DNA of 56,053 nt from Candidatus Pyrohabitans sp. JdFR-17 (GCA_002011115.2 MTME02000085.1:1-56053); one strand, 5' to 3'; counted from the first letter of the stretch, positions 29,501 through 47,909 are shown. Numbers and translations are program-made. Notes: generated by a model from the letters alone, not told the origin.

Positions 29501-30501
29501 TCTGTTCCCTTAGTTGCATTGTATGGCAAGTTTGTGTCACCGATGCCGTCTACGTTGGTATCGCTGCCTTCATATGGAAGCAGTCCACCCCAGTAGTTGC
29601 CCTTTATGTAATTTCCACCAACGATATTTGTACCAGGAGTTTTTGAAATGTTGTAGTGGTTGTAGCCTCCCTGATCATCCTTACACGGGGGGCTGCCACA
29701 ATCAAAGTAGTTGTTGTAGAAAAGATTACCGGAGGAGGCATCATCGAAAAAGATACAGTAGGAAACTCTCCTAATGAAGTTGCCGGTAATTGTATTGCCA
29801 GTTGAAGAGGCGTTTATGTAGATGGCATAACCAGAATCGTATCCATCAACTTTGTCATTTACCACTTCATAAATATTATTGTTTATTATATTGGAATTAG
29901 AAACATTATAAAGTGCGATATATTTATTTGTATAAAGATTGGATGTAGTGCTTTCTTGAATAAAAGAGGAATCCTCCACAGTTATGTTGAAAGAATAGTG
30001 AATCTCAATGGCCGCTTTTTCAGCCTCGTAAACATATACCCCTCTTATGGTTACATTCTCAGAGGTATCGATATAGAAACCATGCTGAAAGCGGTCGCCT
30101 ATCGTGACATTCTCTATGGTGATGTTTTTTCCCCTAATCTGGAAAGCCTTTGCATTTCCTGGAGATGACGTAATTACAGTGAGATTTTTTACTTCTACAC
30201 CATTTGAATTTATGTTGATGTTATTAGAGTAGCTGACTTTAGCCAGATCAACAACAACAGTTCCCTGCTTGTGGCCATAGATTTTCAGGGATTTGTTTAT
30301 GACGATTCCGTAATTAACAGGGTAAGTCCCTGGACACACAACAATAGTATCGCCAGGGGAAGAAGAAATTACTGCCTGCTCTAGGGAAGAAACACTCAAA
30401 TCAGCAGAAACACAACCTGAGGACTGATTTACCTGAATAACCTGTCCACTGTCCGCGCCTACCAGCAGAAGGTACAGGAATAGTATAAAATATTTCTTCA
30501 T
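26572..30501 (-). CDS. Large surface glycoprotein: NosD beta-helix, Ig-like repeats, FN3, PGF-pre-PGF-like domain, CGP-CTERM anchor
   Basis: N.SKT.G.NIVGG..I.GNYW; repeated D..PP...I.SP.N..Y modules; F.V...W.....NP..V.L.....W...FS.F; ends ICGP + hydrophobic helix + RKK. Confidence 0.88.
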   Translation of the reverse strand: MKKYFILFLYLLLVGADSGQVIQVNQSSGCVSADLSVSSLEQAVISSSPGDTIVVCPGTYPVNYGIVINKSLKIYGHKQGTVVVDLAKVSYSNNININSNGVEVKNLTVITSSPGNAKAFQIRGKNITIENVTIGDRFQHGFYIDTSENVTIRGVYVYEAEKAAIEIHYSFNITVEDSSFIQESTTSNLYTNKYIALYNVSNSNIINNNIYEVVNDKVDGYDSGYAIYINASSTGNTITGNFIRRVSYCIFFDDASSGNLFYNNYFDCGSPPCKDDQGGYNHYNISKTPGTNIVGGNYIKGNYWGGLLPYEGSDTNVDGIGDTNLPYNATKGTEYTYIQNGGDYGPLIKQRETSPPVIFSINLHPNYELNSCTLLNASVTSYNETIAGCTLYLDGQAFAMNLSQGSYISYCTYQLCPADFPQGYASYYIEAKDASNNTGFSEVRGLNINATPAVIYIISPANNAVYNSTELPLNVTSDKRITAWIYNLNSAGNVTFTPNTTINSTDGVVEGNNTLEVYAHDVAGYWVYSSVYFTVDLIPPAMQVISPKNSTMYTTRNITVNATASEAVTWRISLNDGENQNVTLPTNINASEGLNHLIIYATDIAGNTNSSGVYFTVDTTPPYAVPSTGNTKVDINSSYNLTWTLYDNVAGGYYRVLRNGSVIEDWQPWSSSNASNVTAPVDTSQLGAYNYTIEFNDSVGWVSSNEVIITVLDPNPPNITIISPENNTYYSETTILLNATSDRAVHIWLYSINGSTNNSFIPPENITITSGDGYYLLEIWANSTSGVFGRAQVYFYVDTAPPITTDNSPAGWQNAEFVISLIAQDNLSGVAYTSYKLDNQSWVNGTTVNITTEGNHTIEYYSVDNAGNVETVKRTYAALDITPPVVNITSPLNRTYTAKEIPLNVTANEGISAWTYSLNNAGNVTLTPNSTITAQEGINHIVVYALDRAGNLASAEVYFSVDTTPPGRVSNLTATSGVRSIFLNWTNPEDVDFAGVEIWVNDETNATLNYTFTSFNIKGLLPATAYNISLRTFDAAGNRGNWSNITVTTLIEEKQIPPAGGGGGKTNKNRIEKVIKEANKGKYAFIMIEIQDIEEIAVKPKVDLYYAKIIIEFLDELPEYIEKPPADRVYLVFKADFSTKAIEKAKIKFKVKKEWLKENNINPNKVKLLHYHAAKWEEFPAKNIGVDGEHYIYEAEFETFSYFVVTGEEGYVEGNTEGVELKKERKFDDFPMFGFSMGSNTEGGEESVSDGVENKSEVYVEIDEKTTATEHEESEVQVPDENTKGICGPSVIVLISLIPLLIFSRKKAA

Positions 30502-30537
30502 CTACCATATTGAAAAATTTTAACAATAACATAAATT

Positions 30538-32211
30538 TTATTTGTACAGATACAGAAGGTACAGGATTATAAGTACAAACTGAATCACCAAGGTGATCTT
30601 TATCGGGAGGGCAAACTCCTGAGGCACCTCTCCACCGTACTTCTTCCTTAAGACCAGCATCAGAGCCACAAGAGCAACTATCAGGAAGCCAATAATTAGC
30701 AGGGGCGTCTTTGGCTTTTTAACCTCAACCGGAGCAAAAAGTTCCTCCTCTTCTGCGGTTTCATTTCTCTTTAGCTGTTCAATAACCTCTGGCCTCTGGA
30801 CGAGTACCACCTCACTCAGAGTAGAATTTACAATGGATAACTTCCATGCCCCTTCAGTGAGAGGTAGAGTCACGTTGAATATCACAGTCTTCTCCACATT
30901 CGGCTCAGCGAATACCGTCTGCCTGAGGCGATAACCTTTTGTCTCACCCCTTATATCCATCAGAATATCCACTGTTCCCTCTTTCCCAACATTTTTGAAT
31001 TTCACTTTAACTGAGAAGGGCTGGGAGATATTGACTATAAAGTCACTTGGTTCGATGGAGATAAATTTAAGTACAGGAATGGTGAGCTTTTCCTCCTTCA
31101 GCTCTGGAAGCACCTCAAAGGGTATCTTCGCAAAGTAAACAAGGTTTTCCTCCCCTGCCGGTTTGAGTATACCAAGGATGTTGTATGGGGCATCACTGAC
31201 ATCTCTGCCCTCTCTTATGCTTCTGTACGCATCTATTTTCTTAGTATCATAGCTCTCGGAATAATCACTCAGGCTTTTTATGAATTCCCTGAGAGGCTCA
31301 GGATTAGCTCTGTCATAGATTTTGACTAGTAGGAAATACTTACCTTCAGGCAACTCATAGGAAAATGTATGGGAAATTGTATCTGCTGGATATTTTATGT
31401 ACCGTTCGGTAGACTTAGAGTAGTATATGGGCTCATTTTTATTATTCGTTATGAGGAAGAAATAATCAAGAGCAACTATTCCATTATGGATGCCTCTGGA
31501 TAAGGATAAATTGAAAGTAAATGGTTTTTGAGAAACAAATATGGGCTTGTTCAGGATCTGTGAACCTATATAATATGAAATGTTCACGGGATACTGCACT
31601 ATCTCCCTCGTGGTCCTGACTGCTGCTTCTTTAGCTATGGCCTTCTTCTTAACTATCCTGAATTTTAAGGTTTTTGTCAACACTGACTGAGCAAAGGTTT
31701 CGCTCTTTAGGTAGCCAGAATAACCACCCACATTAATGCCCTCTGGCTGGTCAGTAAATGACATGGCTGCACTGTAGTCGGGATTGAACCATTCCAGGGC
31801 TCTGGCATACATCTTTCTGACTTTCTCCTCATCCGCCACATCGTAAGCACGAACCTTAATATAGTATTGCCCCTCCTCCCAGGTGTCTGGAATTTTAAAT
31901 TCTGGTGTTATGAACACATTTCTTACATGGTGCCTGTATCTCACGTTGTAGGGTATAACATCCTTAATTTCAAGTCTGCTATTAAAAACAATGATGTAGA
32001 AATTTACAGCAACAAAACCGGCATGATCTACGTCGTTTACTTCAACATAAAGTTTGACTTTCTCACCTGGCTGATACACTGGTTCCTCAACCTCGGTGTA
32101 GATGCCCAAGCCCTGGACATCAGACACTATTACAGCCTTTCCAGCTGCAAACACACCGGAGATTGTTAAAATGAACACCACTGGCACAGCAATCAACATA
32201 TTTGCCTTCAT
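30538..32211 (-). CDS. Exported protein with duplicated Ig-like domains and a C-terminal two-TM anchor
   Basis: Signal peptide; internal repeat EGQYYIKVRAYD / EGKYFLLVKIYD; two C-terminal TM helices. Confidence 0.8.
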   Translation of the reverse strand: MKANMLIAVPVVFILTISGVFAAGKAVIVSDVQGLGIYTEVEEPVYQPGEKVKLYVEVNDVDHAGFVAVNFYIIVFNSRLEIKDVIPYNVRYRHHVRNVFITPEFKIPDTWEEGQYYIKVRAYDVADEEKVRKMYARALEWFNPDYSAAMSFTDQPEGINVGGYSGYLKSETFAQSVLTKTLKFRIVKKKAIAKEAAVRTTREIVQYPVNISYYIGSQILNKPIFVSQKPFTFNLSLSRGIHNGIVALDYFFLITNNKNEPIYYSKSTERYIKYPADTISHTFSYELPEGKYFLLVKIYDRANPEPLREFIKSLSDYSESYDTKKIDAYRSIREGRDVSDAPYNILGILKPAGEENLVYFAKIPFEVLPELKEEKLTIPVLKFISIEPSDFIVNISQPFSVKVKFKNVGKEGTVDILMDIRGETKGYRLRQTVFAEPNVEKTVIFNVTLPLTEGAWKLSIVNSTLSEVVLVQRPEVIEQLKRNETAEEEELFAPVEVKKPKTPLLIIGFLIVALVALMLVLRKKYGGEVPQEFALPIKITLVIQFVLIILYLLYLYK

Positions 32212-32215
32212 GGCA

Positions 32216-32665
32216 TCACTCCAGTATCGCTGATCCACTTACGAAAGAAGATGACCATCTAACACTCTTGCTCCTCAAGGTTATATAGTATCTCACCTCA
32301 TCCCCCTTTTGGGGACTGTATCCATCCTCTGTGATCAGCACCACCTTGTAGTTCCCAGATCCTTTATACTGAACCAAGCCCCAGTAGGTTGAATGAGTAA
32401 CATTCTTGTTTTCTTTTGGTATCACATAGCCCCTGAAGGCTATGAAGGGAGGATAATCAACTCCCGGCACCTTATAATCTGTTAAATCCACTGGCGAAAT
32501 GTTTACTTTAACCGAATCTGGAACTATTTTGTTGTTTTCGATTCTCACTTCAAACGCTATACCGTTTATCTCTTTTGGCTTAATGTCGATACAGCCACTC
32601 AGCCACAGACTAGAAAATAATATCAATGATAAAAGCAAGAATCTTCGAGATTGTAATAAATCCAA
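32216..32665 (-). CDS. Putative lipoprotein
   Basis: Hydrophobic leader ending in lipobox LSGC; start uncertain because it overlaps the upstream gene. Confidence 0.7.
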   Translation of the reverse strand: MDLLQSRRFLLLSLILFSSLWLSGCIDIKPKEINGIAFEVRIENNKIVPDSVKVNISPVDLTDYKVPGVDYPPFIAFRGYVIPKENKNVTHSTYWGLVQYKGSGNYKVVLITEDGYSPQKGDEVRYYITLRSKSVRWSSSFVSGSAILE

Positions 32666-33287
32666 CTTTTTTCACCTCCTGCTTTGGCTGTTCCCTACTA
32701 ATTGTCTTGTTAATTATCTCCTCATTGAGATCTAACTTTTCAAGATCTTCTTTTGTAAATCTGGAAGCGAAGGCTGACCCATGGCACATCTTACACACAT
32801 TCCCAAGTATATTCGCATGTATATAGTGGATGTCATATTTGTGGCAGCTTTTGCACTCCATGGTTTTTGGCTTGCTAACTATAAAATCTGTTACATTCTG
32901 TATTTCGTGACACTTTACGCAGGGGGTCTCTTTATGTATCTTAAGATGGTATGCCTGATAAGTCACATTTTTTGTGCCTGCATGACACAACCTGCAGTGA
33001 TTTGAATCGTGAAGCTCCCTTACATCATTAATTCTCACACTATATCCATTGGCCACGTCGCTCTGATGACACCTGCAGCCCTCCTGAAGGAATTTTTCCT
33101 CGTACTCTTTGTCTGGCATCAGGAAGGCATGGCAGTATATGCACTTGCTTCCGCCATGTCCCATCCCCGCAAAATTTCTTACAAGAGGGTCTAACCCTTC
33201 TATCTTCGTATATTCTTCTTGAGAATATACCTGGGCAACGGTTACCATAGCCACCACTAATGCTGCAAATACCAGAGCAGCCTTCAT
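32610..33287 (-). CDS. Exported multiheme c-type cytochrome (5 CxxCH + 1 CxCH) with hydrophobic C-terminus
   Basis: CIYCH, CRCH, CRLCH, CVKCH, CKSCH, CKMCH; signal peptide. Confidence 0.9.
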   Translation of the reverse strand: MKAALVFAALVVAMVTVAQVYSQEEYTKIEGLDPLVRNFAGMGHGGSKCIYCHAFLMPDKEYEEKFLQEGCRCHQSDVANGYSVRINDVRELHDSNHCRLCHAGTKNVTYQAYHLKIHKETPCVKCHEIQNVTDFIVSKPKTMECKSCHKYDIHYIHANILGNVCKMCHGSAFASRFTKEDLEKLDLNEEIINKTISREQPKQEVKKVGFITISKILAFIIDIIF

Positions 33288-33295
33288 GCAATCGC

Positions 33296-34453
33296 CTATC
33301 TAAATTTTTTGAGTTTTTCATATAAGGCATAGAGGAAGCTTTGGGTAAATGGCGGCTTACTGGAGTCAAACAGTTTTGTTCTTCTATTTGTTCCCTGCAT
33401 CGCAAGGTATAGGGCAAGCACCTCGGCTAGGGTGTCTTTATCGAGGGTTATTGTTATACTATTATCATCAGTACTTATATATCCACCATTCCGATGGTAA
33501 CTACCACCATTTGCCTCGTATCTATTACCCCCTTCATTTGTGTGATATTTATCTCCGCCATTGCGTTGATATGGAGGCTTCTTACCAATTATTTTGTCAA
33601 GAATTTCTTTAACAGCCTCCACTTCAGCCGACGTAGCAGAGGATCCTCCATTTCTCATCTTTAAACCTTTTCCCCCATCTCTATAGGTTTCCATGGGTTT
33701 CTCTATAAAAGGAATCCTGCCTGTTGCATAATACGTTGCTATTGCATAATAACCGACGACATAAAAGATAAGGGTCAGAAACAGAAAAATGTGAAGAGTC
33801 TGCAGATCAAAATAGGCAAGAAGTATAAGACTGGTTATAGGTATAACGAGAATTGGAAAGATTATAAATATGTAAGCAGAGATATCGCTGAAGAGATCAT
33901 ACTCATCGGTAATTAGATACCACCAGAGAAATATGAGAATGAGAATCAAATATATGCTGTTGGGCGATAGCTTGATGTAGAGAAATATTATTGCTCCAAG
34001 AGTCAATATGGACATATTGAGGGACCTGATAAGAAAGGTCATGTTTGGCGCAAATGGTACCGTCGGGGTATGTGCTGTGGTGGCCTGCCTCTCTTTTGAG
34101 ATATAGGAAACCCTTTTGCTCAGAGCATCCACCTTCTCAGAGAGGTCGTCAATAGCAACTTGATACCTGCTGATCTCTTTAAGAAATGGCTCAAATTTTT
34201 CCAGCAAAAGGTACCTGAATTCCCTATCTGCAATGAGGTTTCTCCTAAATTTGGAGTTTATTCTGTAGGCACCGCTCAAAAGCAGCACACCAAGAAAAAG
34301 GAATATCAAGTCAAGAACAAGAGCACGCATGTCAGGAGTTATCATTGTATCATTGAATATCGAAACAAGCGATAGAAATATAATCCCAATAGGCACCATG
34401 TAGGATGAGTACAGGGCGAGCCTTTCACTCAGCTCAACATTATATGCGTTCAT
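33296..34453 (-). CDS. Polytopic membrane protein with cytoplasmic coiled coil and NGG-repeat tail
   Basis: 2 TM, coiled coil, 4 TM, then repeats RNGG/RNGG/NEGG/ANGG/RNGG; start probably MNAYNV (ORF track start 34531). Confidence 0.75.
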   Translation of the reverse strand: MNAYNVELSERLALYSSYMVPIGIIFLSLVSIFNDTMITPDMRALVLDLIFLFLGVLLLSGAYRINSKFRRNLIADREFRYLLLEKFEPFLKEISRYQVAIDDLSEKVDALSKRVSYISKERQATTAHTPTVPFAPNMTFLIRSLNMSILTLGAIIFLYIKLSPNSIYLILILIFLWWYLITDEYDLFSDISAYIFIIFPILVIPITSLILLAYFDLQTLHIFLFLTLIFYVVGYYAIATYYATGRIPFIEKPMETYRDGGKGLKMRNGGSSATSAEVEAVKEILDKIIGKKPPYQRNGGDKYHTNEGGNRYEANGGSYHRNGGYISTDDNSITITLDKDTLAEVLALYLAMQGTNRRTKLFDSSKPPFTQSFLYALYEKLKKFR

Positions 34454-34574
34454 ATGTATCACTATAGATTTCAGGACTAACATATATAAATATTTTTTTA
34501 TTTTTTTAAATAACATTTCATTTTGAGCCAATGATATTTAATTTCTCCTCTCCCCTCCTAAAGGTTCTGAGTAG

Positions 34575-34925
34575 ATGGTAAAAATTATGCAGCCATCTTT
34601 AGGGAGGGATTGTGAGTTATGGTGAAGTGGCTGTCTAGACATTCGATGGTTTCAGCCGCATGCACATCATCGCTAAAATGGTGTTTTGTGGTCTCTCCAG
34701 TTCTGGGGTTGCCCATAGCATTATAGTCTCTGCAGTTTAAGCTTTGCTTTTAAGATAGATCCTCTTCTCAAAGGCTTCTCTCTGTCTTAAATGGCAGGAT
34801 GAACAATTGACCATCTTCCTTTAGACAAAAATGTGGTCACCTTTAAATGTAAATTTTGCTGTTATCTGTACAGATAGTGGTGTAATAAAGAGAAACAACA
34901 CAAAGAGTAGTAAAAATCCCTTCAT
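34575..34925 (-). pseudogene. Degraded third paralog of the tetraheme cytochromes
   Basis: Hand translation from ATG 34925: MKGFLLLFVLFLFITPLSVQITAKFTFKGDHIFV*RKMVNCSSCH; after a frameshift LNCRDYN...HAAETIECLDSH. Confidence 0.8.
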
Positions 34926-35662
34926 CTCGGTACATTTCTAACTCTGGACTCTCTCACCTCAAGCAGTATATACAGAAGCATCACCACCAGGAAGACCAGC
35001 ATTCCCATCTTTCTCGTGGTGCCAAGAACATATTGGATAACCAGAGGGTTGGTTATAGCCTTGCCTGGCTCAACTATTAAACTCTCGCCAACTTGCTTTA
35101 TAATCAAAGGGTGACCAAATAGAGTAACTGCCTTACCTACAATTTTTTCTGGAGGCACCTCCCATGGGTCTGGAACTGGCATGGCATCGCCCTTAGTTTT
35201 TACCATCCCATCTCTGGTTATACTGTAAACCCTGTGGATTACAAACTCCCTCCTCTCCTGATCAAGCTCTATAAAACCTGAAAATAGAATTATATCGCCA
35301 ACCTCTGGTTCCTTAGATAGAGTTTGAATAAGAACCAGGTCGCCCTTCTCAAAGGTTGGACGCATGCTGTCGCTCACCACGACAGCGAAGAAAAATATCT
35401 TTGAAAGAATTAAATAGCCGAGGAAGAGGTAGAAAATGGAGATGAGTATAATTTCAGAAATGGTCTTAGGTCTGTAAGGAAATACCATCTGATACATTCT
35501 GCTAGCAACTTTCCTTTCCCTTGTCTTCCTCAGTATTCTCTCCCTAATGGGACTTATTTTAAGAAGGAGCTTGGTAACTGGAAGGCGAACGCCGCTGATG
35601 AAGTATATTATTACTAGGATAACTGCAAAGTAGAATATGAGCATTTTCTGGATGAAGTTCAT
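34922..35662 (-). CDS. Signal peptidase I (S26, Sec11 type)
   Basis: VVSDSMRPT..KGDLV, VIHRV, KTKGD, PDPW (Ser-His type); extra N-terminal TMs; start uncertain. Confidence 0.92.
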   Translation of the reverse strand: MNFIQKMLIFYFAVILVIIYFISGVRLPVTKLLLKISPIRERILRKTRERKVASRMYQMVFPYRPKTISEIILISIFYLFLGYLILSKIFFFAVVVSDSMRPTFEKGDLVLIQTLSKEPEVGDIILFSGFIELDQERREFVIHRVYSITRDGMVKTKGDAMPVPDPWEVPPEKIVGKAVTLFGHPLIIKQVGESLIVEPGKAITNPLVIQYVLGTTRKMGMLVFLVVMLLYILLEVRESRVRNVPR

Positions 35663-35790
35663 ACTATTAATTGTATAAAATAACATTGAAAAATTGTTGA
35701 ATAAAATGAAAATTTGTACCTTAAAAATTGACATGAAAATCGTCGGTTGTGCACCTATTCATCAGCTGCGATTCTTTCTCCTTATTTACT

Positions 35791-35812
35791 TAAAATTAAA
35801 AAGAAAAAGGGG
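35791..35812 (-). terminator. Oligo-T tract after the tetraheme cytochrome gene
   Basis: Minus strand reads CCCCTTTTTCTTTTTAATTTTA just after the stop at 35825. Confidence 0.5.
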
Positions 35813-35824
35813 TGAGGGACGTAT

Positions 35825-36502
35825 TTACGGCTTATTGATACCAAATGTTATACTCCAGTTGAAGCCATAGCCGTCGTTGTAGCAGTTGGGATCTGGCGTA
35901 CCAGTAAATCCAGAATACCAGCCTGTGCAGTTAGTAGCAGTTGCAGTTACGTTGAGGTACTGGGTTGGCTCAATTATCGTGACATTAGCAGCATAGGTAT
36001 GGCAGGATATACACGCTTCATTGGCGCCCTGTAGCATGTCATTTGTATCAACGCCAGAGGCGTTCTTTGCCCTATAGTACAGTGGTTTGTGTGCCTCGAC
36101 ATTGCCGCCCTCGAACTCTGCTGTAACGTTGGCTCCGGGTATAGTCAAACCACCGTTGTCAGTTGTGGTACCATTTCTGACACCATGGCAGTAGAGACAC
36201 TCAACCATAGCTGCAGCGTGGTAGCTGGCTGTAGCACCTCCATATGGGTTATAGTAATCTTCACCAGGTCTCTTATTATTCGGTATATGGCATACTCTGC
36301 ATGGCGAAGTTCCTATAGTAGACTTGTTCCAGTCGTGCGCATTACCTGAATGAAGCTCGTTACTTATTGTGGTGTGGCACCGCTCGCAGTCTACTGAACT
36401 TCCGTTAATAAACTGATGCTGCCCTGTGAACTTCGCCATGGCGCTAGGCATCACTAGAAATATCACTGCAACCAAACCAAGCACCAGCAAGAGTTTCCTC
36501 AT
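35825..36502 (-). CDS. Exported tetraheme c-type cytochrome A (nanowire-subunit-like)
   Basis: Signal peptide; KFTGQHQF; CERCH, CRVCH, CLYCH, CISCH; strong SD AGGAGGTGA at 36509-36517. Confidence 0.92.
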   Translation of the reverse strand: MRKLLLVLGLVAVIFLVMPSAMAKFTGQHQFINGSSVDCERCHTTISNELHSGNAHDWNKSTIGTSPCRVCHIPNNKRPGEDYYNPYGGATASYHAAAMVECLYCHGVRNGTTTDNGGLTIPGANVTAEFEGGNVEAHKPLYYRAKNASGVDTNDMLQGANEACISCHTYAANVTIIEPTQYLNVTATATNCTGWYSGFTGTPDPNCYNDGYGFNWSITFGINKP

Positions 36503-36561
36503 GTGTTTTCACCTCCTATTGTATATTTTTTTAATATAATTTAAATATTTTTCCATTACCT

Positions 36562-37191
36562 TCACCTCTTACTCACCTCAAAGGCTATGTTCCAGCCACT
36601 GTAGCAGTTGGAGGTACCCCCTATGCAGTCTGAGTAATTGGCTGTAATATTGAGGTACTGGATTGGCTCAATTATTGTGATATTCGCGGCGTGGGTATGG
36701 CAGGATAAACAAGCTTCGTTTGCTCCTCTCAGATAGTCAGCTGTATCCACTCCTGAGGCATTCTTTGCACGCCAATAGAGTGGTCGATGAGCTTCAACCT
36801 GTGAGTTGTTGAACTCTGCATTCACATCCACGCCCGCGGTTATGTAAGTGTTATTTACATGGCACCAAAGACACTCTACTAGAGCAGCACCATGGAACTG
36901 AATATCTTTGTAGTACTCCTCACCCGTTAAAGTGTAAACATCACTCCATTTCACTCTTCCCAGAAATGGATCTGTTGTACCAATATGACAGTCAATACAC
37001 GCAAGATTTATTGACCTGTGGGGCTGGTTGGGATCACTGTTATACTCTGACACAATGTCAGGATGACACTTGCCACAATTAACGCTGCTTCCATTAACAA
37101 ACTGGTGCTGCCCTGTGAACTTTGCTACAACCTGGGGCATAACTAGAAAGGTCACTGCAAGCAGCCCCAATGCCAGGAGTGTTATTCTCAT
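36562..37191 (-). CDS. Exported tetraheme c-type cytochrome B (paralog of A)
   Basis: KFTGQHQF; CGKCH, CIDCH, CLWCH, CLSCH; shares VEAH.PLY.RAKNASGVDT.D.L.GANEAC with A. Confidence 0.92.
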   Translation of the reverse strand: MRITLLALGLLAVTFLVMPQVVAKFTGQHQFVNGSSVNCGKCHPDIVSEYNSDPNQPHRSINLACIDCHIGTTDPFLGRVKWSDVYTLTGEEYYKDIQFHGAALVECLWCHVNNTYITAGVDVNAEFNNSQVEAHRPLYWRAKNASGVDTADYLRGANEACLSCHTHAANITIIEPIQYLNITANYSDCIGGTSNCYSGWNIAFEVSKR

Positions 37192-37267
37192 GTCCTCTTC
37201 TCCTTATCTTCCTGTCCTTACACTATCGATTTAAAATATTTTTGAACATTTCTGAAAAAATTTTATA

Positions 37268-40200
37268 TTACTGGATACCGTGTATGAAGGCATCCATTCC
37301 ATCGTTTGTGCTGCCTCCGTAGTGGCATGTTGCACACTTATCGTCAGTGTAAGGTGCGGTGAGTGTAGAGTGGTTTCCTGTACCCGGTGTGATAACAGGC
37401 GGCTTCTTGCTGTAAAATCTCGTGAAGTAATAGTTGACCGTTAAGGTGTAGTCAGAGTCACTTGTAATATGACAGGAGCCACACCATGTTGTGGTGCCTG
37501 ACCCTATTGTGGCGTTGATTCTCGCCGGGTAGTCTCCGCTCCTGATACCCGCTAACCGAACCGCATAACCGATGGGCAGATTCTCACTGTGGTCTGAGGT
37601 GTGGCAGAATATGCAGGCAGTGTAGTTGTCGCTCCAGTAGGTTGTGCTTCCGTCAGCGGAGATGCCATTGCCGTGGCCTGAGAAGGGCACTTTGACCACA
37701 TTGGTGTAGCCATAGCTGCTCATTAAAGCGTCGAGGGTGCTGTTTACGTGGCAGGTGTAGCACTTTGCATAGCTTTTCTGCTGCTTGGCTATCTTTGCAG
37801 GCACGTATGCCCCACTTTCGGTAAGGTAGGTGACATTGTGCACCTTGTTGGTTGTTCCAACGTGGCAGAGCTTACAGCCCATTCCGTTAACGTGAGTTCT
37901 TCCGCCGGTTATGGGTATGTGGCACGTTCTGCACTCACTATCAAAGCTTGTGTAGCTGGGTATTGTAAGGCTCTGGGTGTGGAGGTTATTGACACTATTA
38001 TGACATTTGAAGCATGGTGCATAGTATCGCCTCGACCTTGCGCTGTGGTCTGGCTGCACCGTCCTGTTGGTATTGGTGAAGAACTGGTTGTAAGCACTGC
38101 TGGTGGTACCACTCTTGTGCTGCTGATGGCAGTAGCCACAGTAGCTCTCATCTTTCTTGGCTTTAAGGTCATCTCTCTTCATCACGTAGTGCGAGGCATA
38201 ACTCTTGTTGTTGTCCACGCTTGTGTAGTGAGAAGGCATCTCATAGTCGAGATTGCTAACCTGATTCTCTCCAAGACTGTGGCAATTGTAGCACTCAGCG
38301 TTGGTCACCTTGACATCCTCACCGTTCTTGTAGTGCTCCTTGACCAGCGGCGCACCAAAGGCTCCGGTAGTGTGGCAGTCTTCGCAGAGCTTGGGTGTGT
38401 TGTAGCCTACAGGATGATCCCCTGAAGGTGGTTCCAGACCATCCTTAGTGTGGCATGCCCAGCACTTCTTATTCTCCGCAGGCAGAGTGGTTACTACGTT
38501 GCTGTTGAGATTCCTGTGAGCCGCATTCGGATCCTCTGTGGCATTGAAGTCAACATCCCACGCCAGTTCGCCCAGATTGTGACAGCTAATGCAGTTGTTG
38601 CCTCCCGAAACACCTTCAGCAACCCTGTGTACAAACTCACGAGTTGTGGTGGAGGTACCTATCAGCCCACCGTGGCATTTGCGGCACTCGCTGTCACTGT
38701 AGCTTGTGTTTGAGATATACCCCCTGCTCAAGTGGTCCCTGTAAGCCGTACCGTCGGTGGCGTTGCTCAAATCCCAGCCGGAGAGATTTACAACCTTAGG
38801 AGAGAAGGCTGAGCCGTTATAGTTCGCTGCTTGGGAGAAGTGACAGCCTGCGCACCAGCTGGTTGAGCTCAGATTTGAGGTGTTCCTAGTAAGCGAATCC
38901 TCTATTAGTGAGACATTGCCCAGAGCATTTGCCCTGTGTCTGCTATCGCCATGGCAGAAAGCACATGCACTCTGCTCGTCGCCTGGCGTCCAGTAGGTCT
39001 GCGATGTCTTATTCCACTTCTGTCCAGCTATTGGGTCATCGCTATGATTTAATGGCGGAATCTGGGAGGCATTCGCAAACTTTCCTCCAAGATTACTACG
39101 ATGGCAGGTGGTGCAGCTAGCGGGTGATGTGGTACCCCATACCTCATATTTACCCGAGCTGTTGAGATATTTAATTCCGTGGATATCCCTTACATTTACG
39201 GTGTTTATATCCCCTGTGTGGCAGTTAACACAATAAACAGTTTCATTCTTTGCTCTGTTTCCTGCGGAATTATGGAGTTGCTTATTGGTGTGGCAGGTCA
39301 TACAGAGTGTGTTGTTTGTGGGTGTGAGAACGGGCTTAGTCAAGCTTTCATCGTGCATTCTGCCAGAACCGTGGCAATCTGCGCACCCAGGGCCACCCAC
39401 GTTGTCGGTGTGGTTAAGCATGTTGTTGTGCGTTGCATCCTGCATTACCAGGTCGAAGCTACTGTTCTGCTGATGGCAGTATACGCAGTTCGCTACACCG
39501 GAGTTGTTGAGCACCGGCGAGATCTTACCATAGTGGTAGGCGCTAAGATTTCCACCATACACACCGTCGCCGTCAGCATCAAAGCTACCGTTGTCAGGGT
39601 CATTAACATTGATTATCCTCAGCTCGGATATGTTTGGATTCTGGTGGCAGTTGAGGCAGCTCTTCAAAGCCGTGTTCGCTCCTGTGGTTGCTACAAGCTC
39701 ACTGCCATTTAGGTAGTGCTCACTCACCATAGGAGCACCATAAGCACCAGCCTTAACTCCTGTGCTGAGGTGACAGTCGGTACATACAAAGGGCGTCTTC
39801 TGCTTGTCGGGATGACCGTCAGGCGGCTGACCGTTACTGCTGTGACAGGCGTAGCAGGGCTCATTCACTTCATAACCTGTGGTGGAGGTGGTGTTTATGT
39901 TGCCGTGCACACCATTCTGTAGAGCCGTGAAGTTGATGTGCTTCGGAGCGGAGCCGCCTAAATCGTGGCAACTCCTGCAGTCAGGGCCTGCTGTTTTGTG
40001 TTTACCATCAATGTTTGCTCCGGGTTGATTCATATCCACACTGTGTACCGTTAGAGCTTTAACACCATACGCATTTGAGCTGCTGTGACAATCTGCACAG
40101 TTAAGAGGAGTAACCCCATCCTGCTGATAGAAGTCCGAAGAACTGTGACATTTCACACACTCGCTGGGTGTCATATTATCGTTTCCATATCCCATGCCGA

Positions 40201-42037
40201 AGGGTATGAGCTTTGTATCGTTGGTGGAGTGGATTGAGGCGTTGGGGTAATAGGTGGTGCCGTTGTATACTATGCTGACATTGTTGTGACAGGAAAGGCA
40301 AGTGAGATTTCCACCACCGGTAACGTTGGCGGCATGTACCTGAGTTACATTCCTGGCTCCTGTGGCGGAGCCATCGTGACATCCTGCCTGGTTACATGAA
40401 GGCGTGGAAGCGGTTATGGTATTATCGTGGGGTGAGCTAACCCCGTGGCAGTTCTGGCAGGTCTTGTTGGCGTTGCCATGGTAAATTGCATTGTTGCTAT
40501 CCCAGCTTGGCACAGGCTGGGCAGCTGCTGACTTTCCACCAACACCTGTAGAGGTGTGGCAGTCCGAGCAGGCAGGGATACGAATATCATGACCGCTAGC
40601 CGAGCCAGTAGCGGTAACGTGGCAGTCCACACAACTTTTGGTTACTGTCTGTCCATGCTGTATATTGCCAACATTCCTCGGCGCTGGAGCACCTGCACCG
40701 TGACAGGAGTTGTCGCCACTTCCGCAGGTGACGCCATAACCAGAACCGCCCACATCCTGAATGGTTACATTGTGACCGTGACCGTGGCAGTAGCGGCAGT
40801 CAACACCTGCGTGGGCATAGGTGGTGTTAACCGTCGGGCTTATTTTAAGTCCTGTTGTATGACACTCGTAGCAGTCCCTGACTTCTGGTACTCCGTTGGC
40901 TGCGCTCAAAGTCGTGCCTCCAACTTTGTGGCAGGTAGCGCAGTTTGTGGCAGGGTCAATGGTTCTGTGATTGAAGTTCGCCGCTGTTACAGTGTTGTGG
41001 CAGTCTGTACAGGCAGGAGAGTCTGTACGGGTGAAATTCGCACCAATTATATTTTTTGCCATCCAGCTCTGAGAAATTCCGTGACAACCCCTATTATAGT
41101 TTCCATATCTGCTTGGTTCACTGCTATTGTATGCTTTATCTGGAGTACCACCCTTAACTATGGAGTAGTCTGGTTGCACACCATAAGCACATCCTGCAAA
41201 AGTAGGTGGTCCTCTGTTGTCTGAAGGACCATACTTGAGAGACTCCGTTTCAAAGATACCATCCCCATCATTATCCTTCCACTCACTGCCACCCGGGGTT
41301 GCAATATATCCCAAACCTTCAATAACACCTGTGTTAGACTCACCCATTATAATGTTGTTTGGATCTCCCCAATATGTTACACCATCGTCCGCACCATAGG
41401 GAAATCTGAAAGGTCCCAAATCTGTGCCAACTGCATCCCCTGCATTCTGGTCAGAAGTTCCATTTAAAATTGTAGGACTTATACCGGTACCACCAGTATT
41501 ACTCCCTGTGATAGGGCTAATCAAATAATCCCAATCTAATGGATAGTCATATTCATCATTCAGTGAATACCAGAGGGCAGAAGCATTGTTTGTATCAAAA
41601 CCCCTGTATATCTCCATTATTGTTCCTTTGTTTTTTGGTGGTGCATCTGGACCTGCTTTCCAGAGAGGCCAATTACCATCGCCGTGCTGCATGTGCACCC
41701 ATCTTGGGAAAGTTGAAGCAGGGACTCTACCTGAACCGGGATGAGGTACGCCTGAGCCTGCAAATGGTCCCTGATTGTTGTAAACCTTATAATCTTGGAT
41801 ACGGTCATACACGCCATCTGGACCGGGACCATTTTTACCACTCATAAGCCCACCAAAAGTCGCATTAATCATATGACATGAACCTGTGGTGCCATCCCCC
41901 TGGGAGCAGCTTAACTGAGGGTTCTCCTCAATCTCAAGGTTGGTGGGTGCCATGATATCATACTTACCAGAGGCGAAGGTAAGGCTTATTGCGATCATTC
42001 CGATGAACAGAATGAGCAGAATGTCACTCTTCTCCAT
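37268..42037 (-). CDS. Giant exported multiheme cytochrome c (34 CxxCH plus atypical motifs)
   Basis: Signal peptide; 34 CxxCH counted by hand; Cx4CH, Cx6CH, Cx9CH; many NxS/T sequons. Confidence 0.95.
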   Translation of the reverse strand: MEKSDILLILFIGMIAISLTFASGKYDIMAPTNLEIEENPQLSCSQGDGTTGSCHMINATFGGLMSGKNGPGPDGVYDRIQDYKVYNNQGPFAGSGVPHPGSGRVPASTFPRWVHMQHGDGNWPLWKAGPDAPPKNKGTIMEIYRGFDTNNASALWYSLNDEYDYPLDWDYLISPITGSNTGGTGISPTILNGTSDQNAGDAVGTDLGPFRFPYGADDGVTYWGDPNNIIMGESNTGVIEGLGYIATPGGSEWKDNDGDGIFETESLKYGPSDNRGPPTFAGCAYGVQPDYSIVKGGTPDKAYNSSEPSRYGNYNRGCHGISQSWMAKNIIGANFTRTDSPACTDCHNTVTAANFNHRTIDPATNCATCHKVGGTTLSAANGVPEVRDCYECHTTGLKISPTVNTTYAHAGVDCRYCHGHGHNVTIQDVGGSGYGVTCGSGDNSCHGAGAPAPRNVGNIQHGQTVTKSCVDCHVTATGSASGHDIRIPACSDCHTSTGVGGKSAAAQPVPSWDSNNAIYHGNANKTCQNCHGVSSPHDNTITASTPSCNQAGCHDGSATGARNVTQVHAANVTGGGNLTCLSCHNNVSIVYNGTTYYPNASIHSTNDTKLIPFGMGYGNDNMTPSECVKCHSSSDFYQQDGVTPLNCADCHSSSNAYGVKALTVHSVDMNQPGANIDGKHKTAGPDCRSCHDLGGSAPKHINFTALQNGVHGNINTTSTTGYEVNEPCYACHSSNGQPPDGHPDKQKTPFVCTDCHLSTGVKAGAYGAPMVSEHYLNGSELVATTGANTALKSCLNCHQNPNISELRIINVNDPDNGSFDADGDGVYGGNLSAYHYGKISPVLNNSGVANCVYCHQQNSSFDLVMQDATHNNMLNHTDNVGGPGCADCHGSGRMHDESLTKPVLTPTNNTLCMTCHTNKQLHNSAGNRAKNETVYCVNCHTGDINTVNVRDIHGIKYLNSSGKYEVWGTTSPASCTTCHRSNLGGKFANASQIPPLNHSDDPIAGQKWNKTSQTYWTPGDEQSACAFCHGDSRHRANALGNVSLIEDSLTRNTSNLSSTSWCAGCHFSQAANYNGSAFSPKVVNLSGWDLSNATDGTAYRDHLSRGYISNTSYSDSECRKCHGGLIGTSTTTREFVHRVAEGVSGGNNCISCHNLGELAWDVDFNATEDPNAAHRNLNSNVVTTLPAENKKCWACHTKDGLEPPSGDHPVGYNTPKLCEDCHTTGAFGAPLVKEHYKNGEDVKVTNAECYNCHSLGENQVSNLDYEMPSHYTSVDNNKSYASHYVMKRDDLKAKKDESYCGYCHQQHKSGTTSSAYNQFFTNTNRTVQPDHSARSRRYYAPCFKCHNSVNNLHTQSLTIPSYTSFDSECRTCHIPITGGRTHVNGMGCKLCHVGTTNKVHNVTYLTESGAYVPAKIAKQQKSYAKCYTCHVNSTLDALMSSYGYTNVVKVPFSGHGNGISADGSTTYWSDNYTACIFCHTSDHSENLPIGYAVRLAGIRSGDYPARINATIGSGTTTWCGSCHITSDSDYTLTVNYYFTRFYSKKPPVITPGTGNHSTLTAPYTDDKCATCHYGGSTNDGMDAFIHGIQ
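37271..39990 (-). repeat. Tandem duplication of a 12-heme module (about 450 aa) within the giant cytochrome
   Basis: Hemes 11-22 parallel hemes 23-34: H.N.N...C.ACH...PP..HP...TP..C.DCH...GAP.V.EHY.NG, YW...AC.FCH, WC..CH, F.H. Confidence 0.8.
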
Positions 42038-42040
42038 CCA

Positions 42041-42934
42041 TCACCACCTCGCTCTGAGCAGAAGCGTGGCAAAGCCAAAGATGCTCAGCAGAGCCGCGCG
42101 CAGCGCACTAGGGAGCATGCTGCCCTGAAATTCACCTGACACAGAAGCAGTTGCACTACCTCGCCCATCCACCCAGTAGGTGTGCCCGTCGCTCACCTTC
42201 ACAATGACCTTGTGATCACCAACCATAGAAGGCGTCCAAGAGCCGGTCCAGATGCCATCATTCTCCGGGTCCGAAAGAGTTAGAGTAGTTTCCCCACCAG
42301 GTCCGGTGATGTACGCAACTACGGTTGGTGCTGCGCTGTTGCCCTCGTTGTCGGTGTAGGCGCCACCTATCAGATTGCCGGCGTTATCCCTGACCTCCGC
42401 CTGGATTGTGGTGGCAACCCCAACCTCTGGAGTGGGTGAAAATGTTATGTTTGTAACATTGAGCTGCCCCCTTACATAGAGATAGAAAGTGGCGGAGTTG
42501 CCGTTGCTGTCAGTAACAGTAACGGTCCACCTGCCCGGGTCGTCATCTGTGCCCCAGGCATACTCTGTGAAGAACTCTCCTTTAGTGGTGCCCTGCCCTG
42601 TTAAACTCAGAACATTATCTCCGGCAGCATCCTGCATCGAAACACTGACAGTGCTCGTGTCAGTAACATACCACCATCCGCAGTCCTGCGACCAGTAATC
42701 CTCTTCCCTAACGTATATCCTGATCTTCTTGTAGCCATAATCATAAAACTGCCTGTCAGCACTGGCGGTGAGGCGGGCATAGTTGTAATAGTTACCAGAT
42801 ACCCAGGTTTGAATATAAACCTGCTGCCAGCCATAACCTCCTGGTCCCTGAGATTCAACAGTACTGGCAGCATGAGCTTCGCCAAGAATTCCAAACAGTA
42901 ATATTATGCCAATAACAAAACGAGCCCATCTCAT
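42041..42934 (-). CDS. Exported Ig-like protein with C-terminal TM anchor
   Basis: Signal peptide ending AHA; PG.W.V.V.D..GN and D...DGIW.G motifs; TM + RAR; 3 bp upstream of the giant cytochrome. Confidence 0.82.
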   Translation of the reverse strand: MRWARFVIGIILLFGILGEAHAASTVESQGPGGYGWQQVYIQTWVSGNYYNYARLTASADRQFYDYGYKKIRIYVREEDYWSQDCGWWYVTDTSTVSVSMQDAAGDNVLSLTGQGTTKGEFFTEYAWGTDDDPGRWTVTVTDSNGNSATFYLYVRGQLNVTNITFSPTPEVGVATTIQAEVRDNAGNLIGGAYTDNEGNSAAPTVVAYITGPGGETTLTLSDPENDGIWTGSWTPSMVGDHKVIVKVSDGHTYWVDGRGSATASVSGEFQGSMLPSALRAALLSIFGFATLLLRARW

Positions 42935-43003
42935 CCTTACCCCTCTTCTACCATTTTCCAATATTCCATCAGGATGCCACCCACATGATACTGATGACCT
43001 CAT

Positions 43004-47774: not shown

Positions 47775-47909
47775 TCCAACTGTCCCTTTAATCCATTTTT
47801 TGCAAACCTGCATGCGCCATTCCATCATTATGCCTCGTCCTTAGGATTCCAGTTATTGAAATGTATTTTATTTTATTTAAATTTTTATCCAAATCTCAGC
47901 TTAACAAAC

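What the first reader, a model, noticed from the sequence alone, without database searches (positions are those of the whole stretch)
30538..43003. Complete-looking extracellular electron transfer / cytochrome nanowire gene cluster
Seen: ten co-oriented genes or pseudogenes: TM-anchored Ig protein, 34-heme cytochrome, two tetraheme paralogs, signal peptidase, pseudogene paralog, polytopic membrane protein, pentaheme cytochrome, lipoprotein and two-TM Ig protein. Known: polymeric tetraheme cytochrome nanowires exist in Archaeoglobus veneficus and Pyrobaculum calidifontis, and large multiheme cytochromes occur in ANME/Methanoperedens. Inference: a membrane-to-surface conduit with filament subunits and its own export/assembly factors; the non-heme genes are candidate assembly proteins. 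No ccm genes are in the window.
Basis: partly seen in the sequence, partly recalled or inferred. Interest (0 to 1): 0.85.

Follow-up and report, generated by a model that had tools for sequence, protein, structure and literature searches.

The report
Archaeal cytochrome nanowire gene cluster
An uncultured hydrothermal archaeon carries genes for haem-protein "wire" subunits like those of Archaeoglobus veneficus, next to helper genes that accompany such subunits in several archaeal lineages and are therefore candidates for building the wire.

Summary
On the minus strand, 43003..30538 carries nine intact co-oriented genes and one decayed gene. They include a 1589-aa cytochrome with 34 CXXCH plus one CX4CH, two tetrahaem paralogues, an archaeal-type signal peptidase, a 6-TM protein and a pentahaem cytochrome.

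The window belongs to a Hydrothermarchaeota genome bin. A profile of the tetrahaem family matches PDB 8E5G, the A. veneficus nanowire subunit, over nearly its full length (E 3.9e-25; identity of 8E5G).

The accessory genes are co-conserved with these subunits:
- The full set of six families occurs in 14 of 77 loci.
- Signal peptidase and 6-TM protein lie together in 25 of 26 loci that have the peptidase.
- In a 121-genome sample of the Methanoperedens class, the same 4 genomes hold both the subunit and the 6-TM protein; 117 hold neither.

CcmF, CcmE, CcmB and a CcmC-like gene lie elsewhere in the genome.

A signal-peptide end motif with Phe two residues after the predicted cut occurs in 151 of 166 family ORFs. 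This suggests processing by the dedicated peptidase. Filament formation and the roles of the accessory proteins are inferred, not shown. I rate it a new member of a known kind.

The parts
42041..43003 (-). Ig320: 320-aa protein with an N-terminal signal or anchor and a C-terminal hydrophobic tail. Lineage-specific, first gene of the cluster.
   Evidence: Filamin repeat E 1e-4, below Pfam's cut-off. The only homologue found is in G001 (27.5% identity, E 2e-7).
37268..42037 (-). MHC1589: secreted giant multihaem cytochrome with 34 CXXCH plus 1 CX4CH. It has a haem-free N-terminal region of about 340 aa and no C-terminal anchor.
   Evidence: Pfam MtrC/MtrF II-IV domain E 9e-35 and cytochrome c7 E 3e-33. 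46 N-X-S/T sequons. Homologues lie next to tetrahaem genes in G003 (65% identity), G001 (3294 aa) and G036.
36562..37191 (-). T209: tetrahaem cytochrome, homologue of the A. veneficus nanowire subunit; candidate filament subunit.
   Evidence: 4 CXXCH. phmmer against PDB hits 8e5g_A at E 2.9e-8; the family profile gives E 3.9e-25. The signal peptide ends VVA|KFTGQH. 7 sequons.
35825..36502 (-). T225: second tetrahaem paralogue, 55-56% identical to T209; candidate filament subunit.
   Evidence: 4 CXXCH. Hits 8e5g_A at E 2.3e-6. 75-88% identical orthologues in G002, G003, G006, G008 and G010. 9 sequons.
34922..35734 (-). SP270: cluster-specific archaeal/ER-type signal peptidase I with an extra N-terminal TM helix.
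   Evidence: TIGR02228 69.4 bits against a cut-off of 51.85. S123, H167, D183 and D189 are invariant in 28 of 28 and 23 of 23 sequences. The family profile hits human SEC11A/C at E 4e-14. A second signal peptidase scoring 120 bits lies on C74.
34532..34921 (-). Decayed remnant of a nanowire-family cytochrome gene, at the site that holds a 382-aa 7-haem paralogue in G001.
   Evidence: An intact 386-aa 7-haem paralogue lies on contig C12.
33296..34531 (-). mem411: 6-TM protein with a long charged helix after TM2, an invariant WW in TM4 and a disordered C-terminal tail. It is always paired with the signal peptidase.
   Evidence: No Pfam or NCBIfam hit. AlphaFold2 mean pLDDT 77.5, blocks covering residues 41-90 and 171-270 at 94 or higher. 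No Foldseek match in the PDB at E<=0.001. Only 61 representative proteins at E<=1e-3 among 1.84 billion. Alignments A2 and A3.
32610..33287 (-). penta225: pentahaem cytochrome with a signal peptide and a conserved hydrophobic or amphipathic C-terminal tail.
   Evidence: 5 CXXCH. 19 of 20 homologues have 5 haem motifs, and similar C-terminal tails are visible in their printed ends.
32216..32665 (-). lipo149: small predicted lipoprotein (LSGC) that overlaps the 3' end of penta225.
   Evidence: Homologues follow the pentahaem gene in 18 loci, and many show a Cys shortly after the hydrophobic N-terminus.
30538..32238 (-). Ig566: membrane-anchored, mostly extracellular repeat protein with an N-terminal signal and two C-terminal TM helices.
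   Evidence: Family HMM hits in Hydrothermarchaeota, Methanoperedens, ANME-1 and Archaeoglobi. No PDB sequence match.
26572..30501 (-). Possibly co-transcribed 1309-aa glycoprotein-like surface protein (NosD beta-helix, Ig-like domains, fn3, PGF-pre-PGF), starting 36 nt downstream of Ig566. Association is uncertain.
   Evidence: Homologues lie downstream of Ig566 in G003, G004 and G036.

Best explanation
This is an A. veneficus-type (AvECN/F2KMU8-type) extracellular cytochrome filament locus in a Hydrothermarchaeota archaeon.

Shown:
- T209 and T225 are full-length homologues of the solved nanowire subunit. All four haem motifs and the distal histidines are conserved.
- The neighbouring signal peptidase, 6-TM protein, pentahaem cytochrome, lipoprotein and Ig566 travel with such subunits across several archaeal lineages.
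- The genome has System I haem c maturation genes and a separate housekeeping signal peptidase.

Inferred mechanism:
1. The subunits are exported by Sec and loaded with haem by Ccm.
2. The cluster's own ER-type signal peptidase cuts their family-specific signal peptide after (A/S), leaving a (K/L)-F-x-G-Q-H N-terminus. It probably works with its obligate 6-TM neighbour. This follows the logic of SipW and TasA, where a Phe at P2' calls for a dedicated archaeal-like peptidase.
3. The mature subunits stack into a haem wire.
4. The C-terminally tailed pentahaem cytochrome, the lipoprotein and the membrane-anchored Ig566 form the cell-proximal base or feed point.
5. The 34/35-haem cytochrome and Ig320 are lineage-specific additions that extend or terminate the path. 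A longer 7-11-haem paralogue, decayed in this locus but intact on contig C12, is a candidate adaptor.
For: Homology to the nanowire subunit:
- The profile of 14 tetrahaem proteins hits 8e5g_A at E 3.9e-25 (91.6 bits) over profile positions 4-201 of 207. The next hit is at E 0.002.
- Single sequences give E 2.9e-8 and 2.3e-6.
- 8E5G is F2KMU8 of A. veneficus (passages).
- Seven histidines are invariant in alignment A1: four in CXXCH motifs plus H29, H100 and H135. The alignment also shows a further His in most rows near position 57.

Synteny and co-occurrence:
- Conserved gene order in G003, G002, G001, G036 and G035.
- Of 77 loci: signal peptidase in 26, 6-TM protein in 25, both in 25, all six families in 14.
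- 5 of 5 Archaeoglobi genomes have one copy of the 6-TM gene. Signal peptidase and Ig566 are adjacent to it in 4 of 5, although unlinked from the subunit genes.
- Among 41 relatives: both 16, subunit only 3, 6-TM only 5, neither 17.
- In the 121-genome class sample: both 4, either alone 0, neither 117.

Signal peptidase:
- Above the TIGR02228 cut-off, with Ser/His/Asp invariant.
- It is a second, divergent paralogue (71 bits against 120 bits for the C74 copy).
- In the tree, the 23 cluster-linked peptidases plus a second Methanoperedens copy separate from 8 other peptidases of the same genomes, with support 86/91.

Other:
- N-terminal motif in 151 of 166 family ORFs, with F at +2 in 144 and H at +6 in 151.
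- TasA/SipW Phe-at-P2' precedent: abstract of PMC10269814, seen in the listing.
- Ccm genes.
- N-X-S/T sequons run at 2.9-4.0 per 100 aa in the cytochromes against 0.4-0.7 in the signal peptidase and 6-TM protein, which fits exposed glycoproteins.
[quoted passage not shown] M. vercellensis (passages).
Against: - No direct evidence of polymerisation. The AlphaFold2 model of T209 is poor (mean pLDDT 54.9), so the fold and haem geometry could not be compared.
- T209 and T225 are remote in sequence from AvECN: as single sequences they reach it only at E 2.9e-8 and 2.3e-6. The family also has many paralogues, and only one member has been shown to form a filament.
- 51 of 77 loci hold subunit paralogues without signal peptidase or 6-TM protein in the fetched flanks. 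23 of those 51 have under 1 kb to a locus end on one side. Most copies are therefore not physically linked to the helper genes.
- The 6-TM protein's predicted loops outside the membrane are 2-5 residues long, and its long helix and tail look cytoplasmic by charge. This does not suit an extracellular assembly platform.
- Chadwick et al. read the same kind of gene pair as general cytochrome maturation factors.
- No membrane electron-input module was identified.
- The locus carries a decayed gene.
Confidence: 0.68

Rival explanations
1. The cytochromes are non-filamentous surface or pseudoperiplasmic electron carriers. The signal peptidase and 6-TM pair are general maturation factors for many multihaem cytochromes (signal-peptide removal, haem handling), as Chadwick et al. 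proposed for ANME, and are not filament-assembly factors.
For: - Chadwick et al. 2022 (PMC9012536, passages) describe a signal peptidase plus an unannotated integral membrane gene next to CcmF2/MHC-B in ANME-2a/2b/3. They also report it in ANME-1, Syntrophoarchaeum, Geoglobus and Ferroglobus, and suggest a role in maturation and haem handling.
- The 6-TM protein has conserved Trp residues (WW, LW, AW).
- Most subunit paralogues are unlinked from the pair.
Against: - Alignments A2 (20 sequences) and A3 (49 sequences) have no invariant or nearly invariant His or Cys. CcmC/CcmF-type haem handling needs conserved histidine ligands (that requirement is from general knowledge).
- mem411 has no PF01578 hit.
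- The predicted external loops are tiny.
- The family-wide cleavage-site motif is specific to the nanowire family. The 34-haem cytochrome of the same cluster has a different signal-peptide end.
- In the 121-genome class sample, the 6-TM gene occurred only in the 4 genomes that also hold the subunit family. That sample was not screened for other multihaem cytochromes.
Confidence: 0.2
2. The cluster is a respiratory module for a soluble or periplasmic substrate. The small cytochromes would be redox partners of the giant cytochrome, which would act as a terminal reductase or oxidase, with no long-range wire.
For: - The giant cytochrome has MtrC/MtrF-like and DmsE-like segments.
- The genome holds other respiratory multihaem proteins, such as an NrfA-like Cytochrom_C552 (E 1e-49).
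Against: - No catalytic domain was detected in any cluster protein.
- The core module occurs in Methanoperedens, ANME-1 and Archaeoglobi without the giant cytochrome.
- The subunits are homologous to a solved filament.
Confidence: 0.07
3. The locus is decaying and no longer functional in this organism.
For: One family member inside the cluster is reduced to a 390-nt remnant with stops and a frameshift. No RNA data were available.
Against: - All nine other genes are intact. They are 74-88% identical to orthologues in G003 and G002, apart from the giant cytochrome at 65% to its G003 homologue. Gene order is the same.
- The catalytic residues and all haem motifs are kept.
- The lost gene type has an intact copy on C12.
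Confidence: 0.05

Closest known systems
AvECN (F2KMU8, PDB 8E5G), the extracellular cytochrome nanowire of Archaeoglobus veneficus (Baquero et al. 2023, Cell; paper not held, known here through citing papers)
   Same: Tetrahaem subunit. Full-length profile match at E 3.9e-25, with all four CXXCH and the GQH, HAAA and EAH histidines aligned. Same N-terminal motif.
   Different: Shorter (209 and 225 aa against 262 aa) and reached as single sequences only at E 2.9e-8 and 2.3e-6. A different phylum. Two tandem paralogues. The subunits are physically linked to the signal peptidase, 6-TM, pentahaem, lipoprotein and Ig566 genes, whereas in the five Archaeoglobi genomes examined the helper trio is unlinked from the subunit genes. 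Filament formation is not shown here.
ECN(Mv) cluster of 'Ca. Methanoperedens vercellensis' (PMC13748539, passages)
   Same: A 4-haem AvECN homologue inside a gene cluster. Methanoperedens loci fetched here have the same helper families: pentahaem-lipoprotein-subunit-SPase-11-haem paralogue-6TM-Ig566.
   Different: Different gene order. The long 11-haem paralogue is intact there and decayed here. No giant 34-haem neighbour there. In the passages I saw, the paper's text does not discuss the non-haem genes; its Fig. 3a and supplements were not visible to me.
Signal peptidase + '8x TMH' membrane gene pair of ANME, Geoglobus and Ferroglobus (Chadwick et al. 2022, PMC9012536, passages)
   Same: An archaeal signal peptidase next to an unannotated integral membrane protein with conserved Trp residues, found with multihaem cytochrome genes and restricted to lineages proposed to do extracellular electron transfer. 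An ANME-1 locus labelled with a 'CONS3730' isolate name carries both families (L106).
   Different: They report 8 TM helices, a large periplasmic loop and no homologues outside those groups. Here the model has 6 TM helices with minimal outer loops, and the family also occurs in Hydrothermarchaeota, Thermoplasmata-type and Methanocellales genomes.
TapA-SipW-TasA fibre operon of Bacillus subtilis (abstract of PMC10269814 in the listing; operon details recalled)
   Same: A dedicated archaeal/ER-type signal peptidase encoded beside an extracellular fibre subunit whose cleavage site has Phe at P2'. SP270 also gives a weak SipW model hit (NF046067, E 1e-7, far below its cut-off).
   Different: TasA is a haem-free beta-rich fibre assembled by donor-strand exchange. 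The subunits share no homology. This is an analogy of logic only.
Geobacter OmcS/OmcE and OmcZ nanowires, with the OzpA protease for OmcZ (passages)
   Same: A polymer of a multihaem cytochrome. For OmcZ, a dedicated protease in the neighbourhood is needed for maturation.
   Different: No sequence relationship was detected (one search lists no Omc filament chain). OzpA is a subtilisin-type protease acting on a C-terminal part, not a signal peptidase. The cell envelope also differs.

Membership tests
AvECN-type nanowire subunit family (F2KMU8 / 8E5G) | Significant full-length sequence similarity to the solved subunit | tested here: met
   Profile E 3.9e-25, positions 4-201 of 207 against residues 3-230 of 262. 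Single sequences give E 2.9e-8 and 2.3e-6.
AvECN-type nanowire subunit family (F2KMU8 / 8E5G) | Four c-type haem motifs with enough conserved histidines for bis-His ligation | tested here: met
   4 CXXCH in T209 and T225. Seven His are invariant in A1, and a further His is visible near position 57 in most rows. The actual ligation was not observed.
AvECN-type nanowire subunit family (F2KMU8 / 8E5G) | Secreted: N-terminal signal peptide with the family's end motif | tested here: met
   VVA|KFTGQH and AMA|KFTGQH in the window. The motif is in 151 of 166 family ORFs and in the 8e5g_A sequence as aligned.
AvECN-type nanowire subunit family (F2KMU8 / 8E5G) | Polymerises into a filament with a continuous haem chain | not testable with these tools
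   AlphaFold2 without haems gave mean pLDDT 54.9.
Archaeal/ER-type signal peptidase I (TIGR02228; SEC11/SipW type) | Score above the curated cut-off, and Ser/His/Asp catalytic residues present | tested here: met
   69.4 bits against 51.85. S123, H167, D183 and D189 are invariant. The family profile hits SEC11A/C at E 4e-14. Assigning these residues as catalytic rests on general knowledge.
System I cytochrome c maturation (Ccm) in the genome | CcmF, CcmE, CcmC and CcmB present | tested here: met
   PF01578: 116 bits in a 738-aa ORF on C75, and 81 bits in a 319-aa ORF on C94. PF03100: 68.5 bits on C75. PF03379: 29.9 bits against a cut-off of 24.9 on C76. CcmA, CcmG and CcmH were not searched. 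The genome is 83% complete.
Haem-handling proteins (CcmC/CcmF/CcsA, WWD domain), considered for mem411 | Match to the family model, and conserved histidines flanking a Trp-rich external loop | tested here: not met
   No PF01578 hit. No invariant or nearly invariant His in A2 or A3. The WW sits inside TM4 of the model.
Chadwick 'signal peptidase + 8x TMH' pair | Unannotated integral membrane protein with conserved Trp, adjacent to a signal peptidase in cytochrome-rich archaea | tested here: inconclusive
   Adjacency is met (25 of 26 loci) and conserved Trp is met. The helix count is 6, not 8. No sequence from that paper was available for comparison.
MtrC/OmcA-type decahaem cytochromes, considered for MHC1589 | Whole-protein match to the decahaem family models | tested here: not met
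   Only domain-level hits: PF22113 E 9e-35. TIGR03508 scores 92 bits against a cut-off of 192. No PDB sequence match at E<=0.01.

The most novel reading that the evidence does not exclude
The signal peptidase, its obligate 6-TM partner and the Ig566 anchor form a previously unrecognised archaeal machine that licenses cytochrome-wire assembly by proteolysis.

- Cutting the family-specific signal peptide would free a (K/L)-F-x-G-Q-H N-terminus.
- Its histidine, six residues in, would complete haem ligation at a subunit interface, so that only processed subunits can polymerise.
- The 7-11-haem long paralogue and the tailed pentahaem cytochrome would serve as the base adaptor and feed point.

The same machine would serve Methanoperedens, ANME-1, Syntrophoarchaeum, Archaeoglobi, Thermoplasmata-type archaea and Hydrothermarchaeota.
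Probability: 0.3. Interest if true: 0.85.

Novelty: new member of a known kind. Interest (0 to 1): 0.62.

Why it matters
[quoted passage not shown] This locus, read together with its relatives, gives a short list of candidates that can be tested:
- a dedicated signal peptidase
- a rare 6-TM protein that is always beside it
- a tailed pentahaem cytochrome
- a lipoprotein
- an Ig-repeat membrane anchor
- a precise cleavage-site motif

The same set occurs in cultured Archaeoglobi and in enriched Methanoperedens, where experiments are feasible.

The locus also extends AvECN-type wire genes to Hydrothermarchaeota, a subseafloor and hydrothermal lineage. I saw no treatment of such a system in the 3 of 5 papers I opened that mention both 'Hydrothermarchaeota' and 'multiheme'. 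That would add mineral or partner-directed electron transfer to the lineage's possible lifestyles.

Tried and rejected
- AlphaFold2 of T209 with the 14-row alignment gave mean pLDDT 54.9. That is too poor for a fold search, so none was run on it.
- Foldseek of the mem411 model against the PDB gave 0 matches at E<=0.001 out of 51 listed, with all query-normalised TM-scores at or below 0.22. No fold assignment follows.
- The ESM Atlas search of the mem411 core gave no usable hit.
- Complex prediction on the signal peptidase (A4) with mem411 residues 25-285 (A3) returned 'no answer', score 0.02 against a mark of 0.32. This is no evidence either way.
- The look-up of sequencing runs listed no RNA holder. 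Expression is therefore unknown.
- Sequence searches against the PDB found nothing for penta225 (best E 0.14), nothing for MHC1589 and nothing for Ig566.
- Pfam on nine other multihaem ORFs of the genome and the C12 paralogue did not reveal a NapC/NirT- or NrfD-type membrane entry point. The electron input remains unassigned.
- I considered a prepilin-type (class III) signal for the subunits and rejected it. The conserved motif follows the hydrophobic stretch instead of preceding it, and it obeys the -3/-1 small-residue rule.
- I considered mem411 as a haem-handling protein and rejected it (see membership test).
- Baquero et al. 2023 could not be read. What I say about AvECN comes from citing papers. 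That AvECN uses histidines from adjacent subunits is only hinted at in a figure legend and otherwise recalled.
- Supplements are closed. Chadwick's S11 Fig and S2 Data, and the Nat Commun 2026 Fig. 3a and Supplementary Data, could bear on whether the helper genes are already mapped.
- One search listed only 12 of 1,814 papers.

Full report
**What is there.** The window is contig C85 of a 1.62-Mb, 101-contig genome bin rated 83% complete. Its same-genus relatives carry public names such as Candidatus Hydrothermarchaeota and Ca. Pyrohabitans jungbluthii JdFR-16.

Between 43003 and 30538, all on the minus strand, lie the following genes:
- Ig320
- a 1589-aa cytochrome with 34 CXXCH plus one CX4CH
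- two tetrahaem proteins, T209 and T225, 55-56% identical to each other
- SP270
- a 390-nt gap
- mem411
- a pentahaem cytochrome
- a small lipoprotein-like gene
- Ig566

Gaps between genes are 3-90 nt, apart from the 390-nt one.

The 390-nt gap holds a decayed family member. It has a signal-peptide-like start, then AKFT..G.H.F, then a CSSCH motif with a stop codon between them. After a frameshift it reads HAAETIECLDSH, so that haem motif is lost.

**The tetrahaem proteins are relatives of a solved nanowire.**
- As single sequences, T209 and T225 hit one PDB chain significantly, 8e5g_A, at E 2.9e-8 and 2.3e-6.
- A profile of 14 family members from this lineage hits the same chain at E 3.9e-25. 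The match covers 198 of 207 profile positions and aligns all four CXXCH motifs and the GQH, HAAA and EAH histidines. The next PDB hit is at E 0.002.
- 8E5G is F2KMU8, the tetrahaem filament of Archaeoglobus veneficus.
- Seven histidines are invariant in the alignment, and a further His is visible in most rows. This fits four bis-His haems.
- The AlphaFold2 model was poor (pLDDT 54.9). The link to the nanowire therefore rests on sequence only.

**The helper genes travel with the subunits.**

Within Hydrothermarchaeota, the order subunit(s)-SPase-6TM-pentahaem-lipoprotein-Ig566 is kept in G003, G002 and G001 (same genus) and in G036 (another family). In G035 the signal peptidase and 6-TM genes are swapped.

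I built HMMs from these orthologues and searched the ORFs of 77 loci that the search for related loci returned for the subunit family:
- The signal peptidase was in 26 loci, the 6-TM protein in 25, and both in 25.
- All six families were in 14 loci: six from Hydrothermarchaeota, seven from Methanoperedens and one from ANME-1.
- Partial sets were in GoM-Arc1, Methanocellales, Methanomassiliicoccales, Thermoplasmata-type and Syntrophoarchaeum contigs.
- 51 loci held only subunit paralogues, often in arrays. 23 of these 51 have under 1 kb to a locus end on one side.

In five Archaeoglobi genomes that carry AvECN-like genes, each has exactly one 6-TM gene. In 4 of 5 it sits next to the signal peptidase and Ig566, away from the subunit genes.

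Presence and absence agree across genomes:
- Among the 41 relatives: both 16, subunit only 3, 6-TM only 5, neither 17. One of the 'subunit only' genomes, G004, has the cluster cut by a contig end.
- In a 121-genome sample of the class that contains Methanoperedens, the same four genomes have both genes and 117 have neither.

Related genomes are not independent, so these counts show linkage and not a statistical test.

**The peptidase.**
- SP270 passes the archaeal signal peptidase I model at 69.4 bits against a cut-off of 51.85.
- It keeps Ser123, His167, Asp183 and Asp189 in every homologue aligned.
- As a family it matches human SEC11A/C.
- The genome has a second, better-scoring signal peptidase on C74 (120 bits against 71 bits). 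The cluster copy is therefore an extra paralogue.
- It carries an added N-terminal TM helix and a longer C-terminal region than the C74 copy.
- In a maximum-likelihood tree, the 23 cluster-linked peptidases from six lineages, plus a second Methanoperedens copy, fall on one side. That second copy lies on the same contig as further family genes. Eight other peptidases of the same genomes fall on the other side. Support for the split is 86/91. Inside the cluster-linked side, the lineages form well-supported groups.

**A family-wide cleavage motif.** In 151 of 166 family ORFs the hydrophobic N-terminal stretch ends in (L/M)-P-x-(T/A)-x-(S/A), followed by (L/K/M)-F-x-G-Q-H. Phe is at +2 in 144 and His at +6 in all 151. 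About half of the 15 misses are truncated fragments lacking the N-terminus.
- The small residues at -3 and -1 fit cleavage by signal peptidase I.
- The long 7-11-haem paralogues share the motif. The 34-haem protein does not.
- A Phe at P2' is the feature that makes B. subtilis TasA depend on the dedicated archaeal-like peptidase SipW (abstract of PMC10269814, seen in the listing).
- I therefore infer that SP270 processes the subunits. This is an inference from motif and linkage, not a result.

**The 6-TM protein.**
- mem411 has no Pfam or NCBIfam match.
- Only 61 representative proteins match it at E<=1e-3 among 1.84 billion.
- No PDB fold match was found.
- The AlphaFold2 model is confident for the core, with pLDDT blocks of 94 or higher over residues 41-90 and 171-270. 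It shows six TM helices, with TM2 running on into a charged helix that ends at residue 151.
- The external loops are 2-5 residues. By charge, the N-terminus, the long helix and the tail face the cytoplasm (my reading). Thermoplasmata-type forms add TPR and zinc-ribbon domains at the N-terminus.
- WW in TM4 is invariant. No His or Cys is conserved, which argues against haem handling.
- Its role is open. I favour a membrane partner or platform for the peptidase and the filament base, with modest confidence.

**The other parts.**
- The pentahaem protein keeps five haem motifs in 19 of 20 homologues, and similar hydrophobic or amphipathic C-terminal tails are visible in their printed ends.
- The lipoprotein-like gene follows the pentahaem gene in 18 loci.
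- Ig566 is a membrane-anchored repeat protein with no solved relative.
- Ig320 has a homologue only in G001. The giant cytochrome has homologues only in close relatives, and the G001 version is 3294 aa. These two are lineage-specific additions.
- The cytochromes are rich in N-X-S/T sequons.
- CcmF, CcmE, CcmB and a CcmC-like gene are present on other contigs.
- The genome has 14 ORFs with three or more CXXCH.

**Comparison with the literature.**
- Chadwick et al. 2022 described a signal peptidase plus an unannotated membrane gene beside cytochrome genes in ANME, Syntrophoarchaeum, Geoglobus and Ferroglobus, and proposed a maturation role. The pair here is probably the same one, now tied specifically to the AvECN family and found in further lineages.
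- The 2026 paper on Ca. M. vercellensis names an ECN homologue cluster. [quoted passage not shown]
- I found no text on such a system in Hydrothermarchaeota. Those searches are limited, and supplements were closed.

**Verdict.** The locus is a new member of the AvECN kind, in a new phylum. Its helper-gene set is informative about how such wires may be processed and anchored. Polymerisation, the peptidase's substrate, the role of the 6-TM protein and the electron entry point remain to be shown.

Noticed in passing
window 20001-21200, 21203-22570, 22575-23873 (+): Two Tubulin/FtsZ-family genes (PF00091, E 5e-25 and 1e-6) flank a 455-aa ORF that has no Pfam hit.
   Followed up: no
window 24001-38000: GC content drops to 0.40-0.47 across the helper genes and the two NosD-like surface protein genes, against about 0.47-0.56 in the flanking parts of the window.
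   Followed up: no
window 26572-30501 (-) and 23870-25714 (-): Two NosD/beta-helix surface proteins. The 1309-aa one has Big_13, fn3 and PGF-pre-PGF domains, 60 N-X-S/T sequons and a C-terminal Cys-Gly-Pro followed by a TM helix and a basic tail. The 614-aa one has CWB2 repeats. Homologues follow Ig566 in G003, G004 and G036.
   Followed up: partly
window 45861-47828 (-): A 655-aa ORF with a Cys-Gly-Pro + hydrophobic + RRR stretch in the middle of the protein, resembling a C-terminal sorting signal placed internally. It may be a fusion or a read-through.
   Followed up: no
window 25811-26428 (+): A peptidase M54 (archaemetzincin-type) gene, E 1e-23, sits between the two surface protein genes on the opposite strand.
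   Followed up: no
L021/L044 (G001, contig MTMD02000002.1), about 2717-12601 of L021: The giant cytochrome next to the tetrahaem genes in Ca. Pyrohabitans jungbluthii JdFR-16 is 3294 aa as a called ORF. As an open-ended 3306-aa read in L044 it carries 69 CXXCH motifs.
   Followed up: no
P0047; P0010, P0038; L053, L055, L068: Fused forms of the 6-TM family. One is a 1483-aa protein whose N-terminal part has beta-propeller (PQQ/DUF5711) and Big_7 hits. The Thermoplasmata-type forms carry N-terminal TPR repeats and a zinc ribbon.
   Followed up: partly
G000 contig C12: 10006-11166 (L030): An intact 386-aa, 7-haem long paralogue with the family N-terminal motif stands alone among unrelated genes. 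The syntenic copy in the window has decayed.
   Followed up: partly
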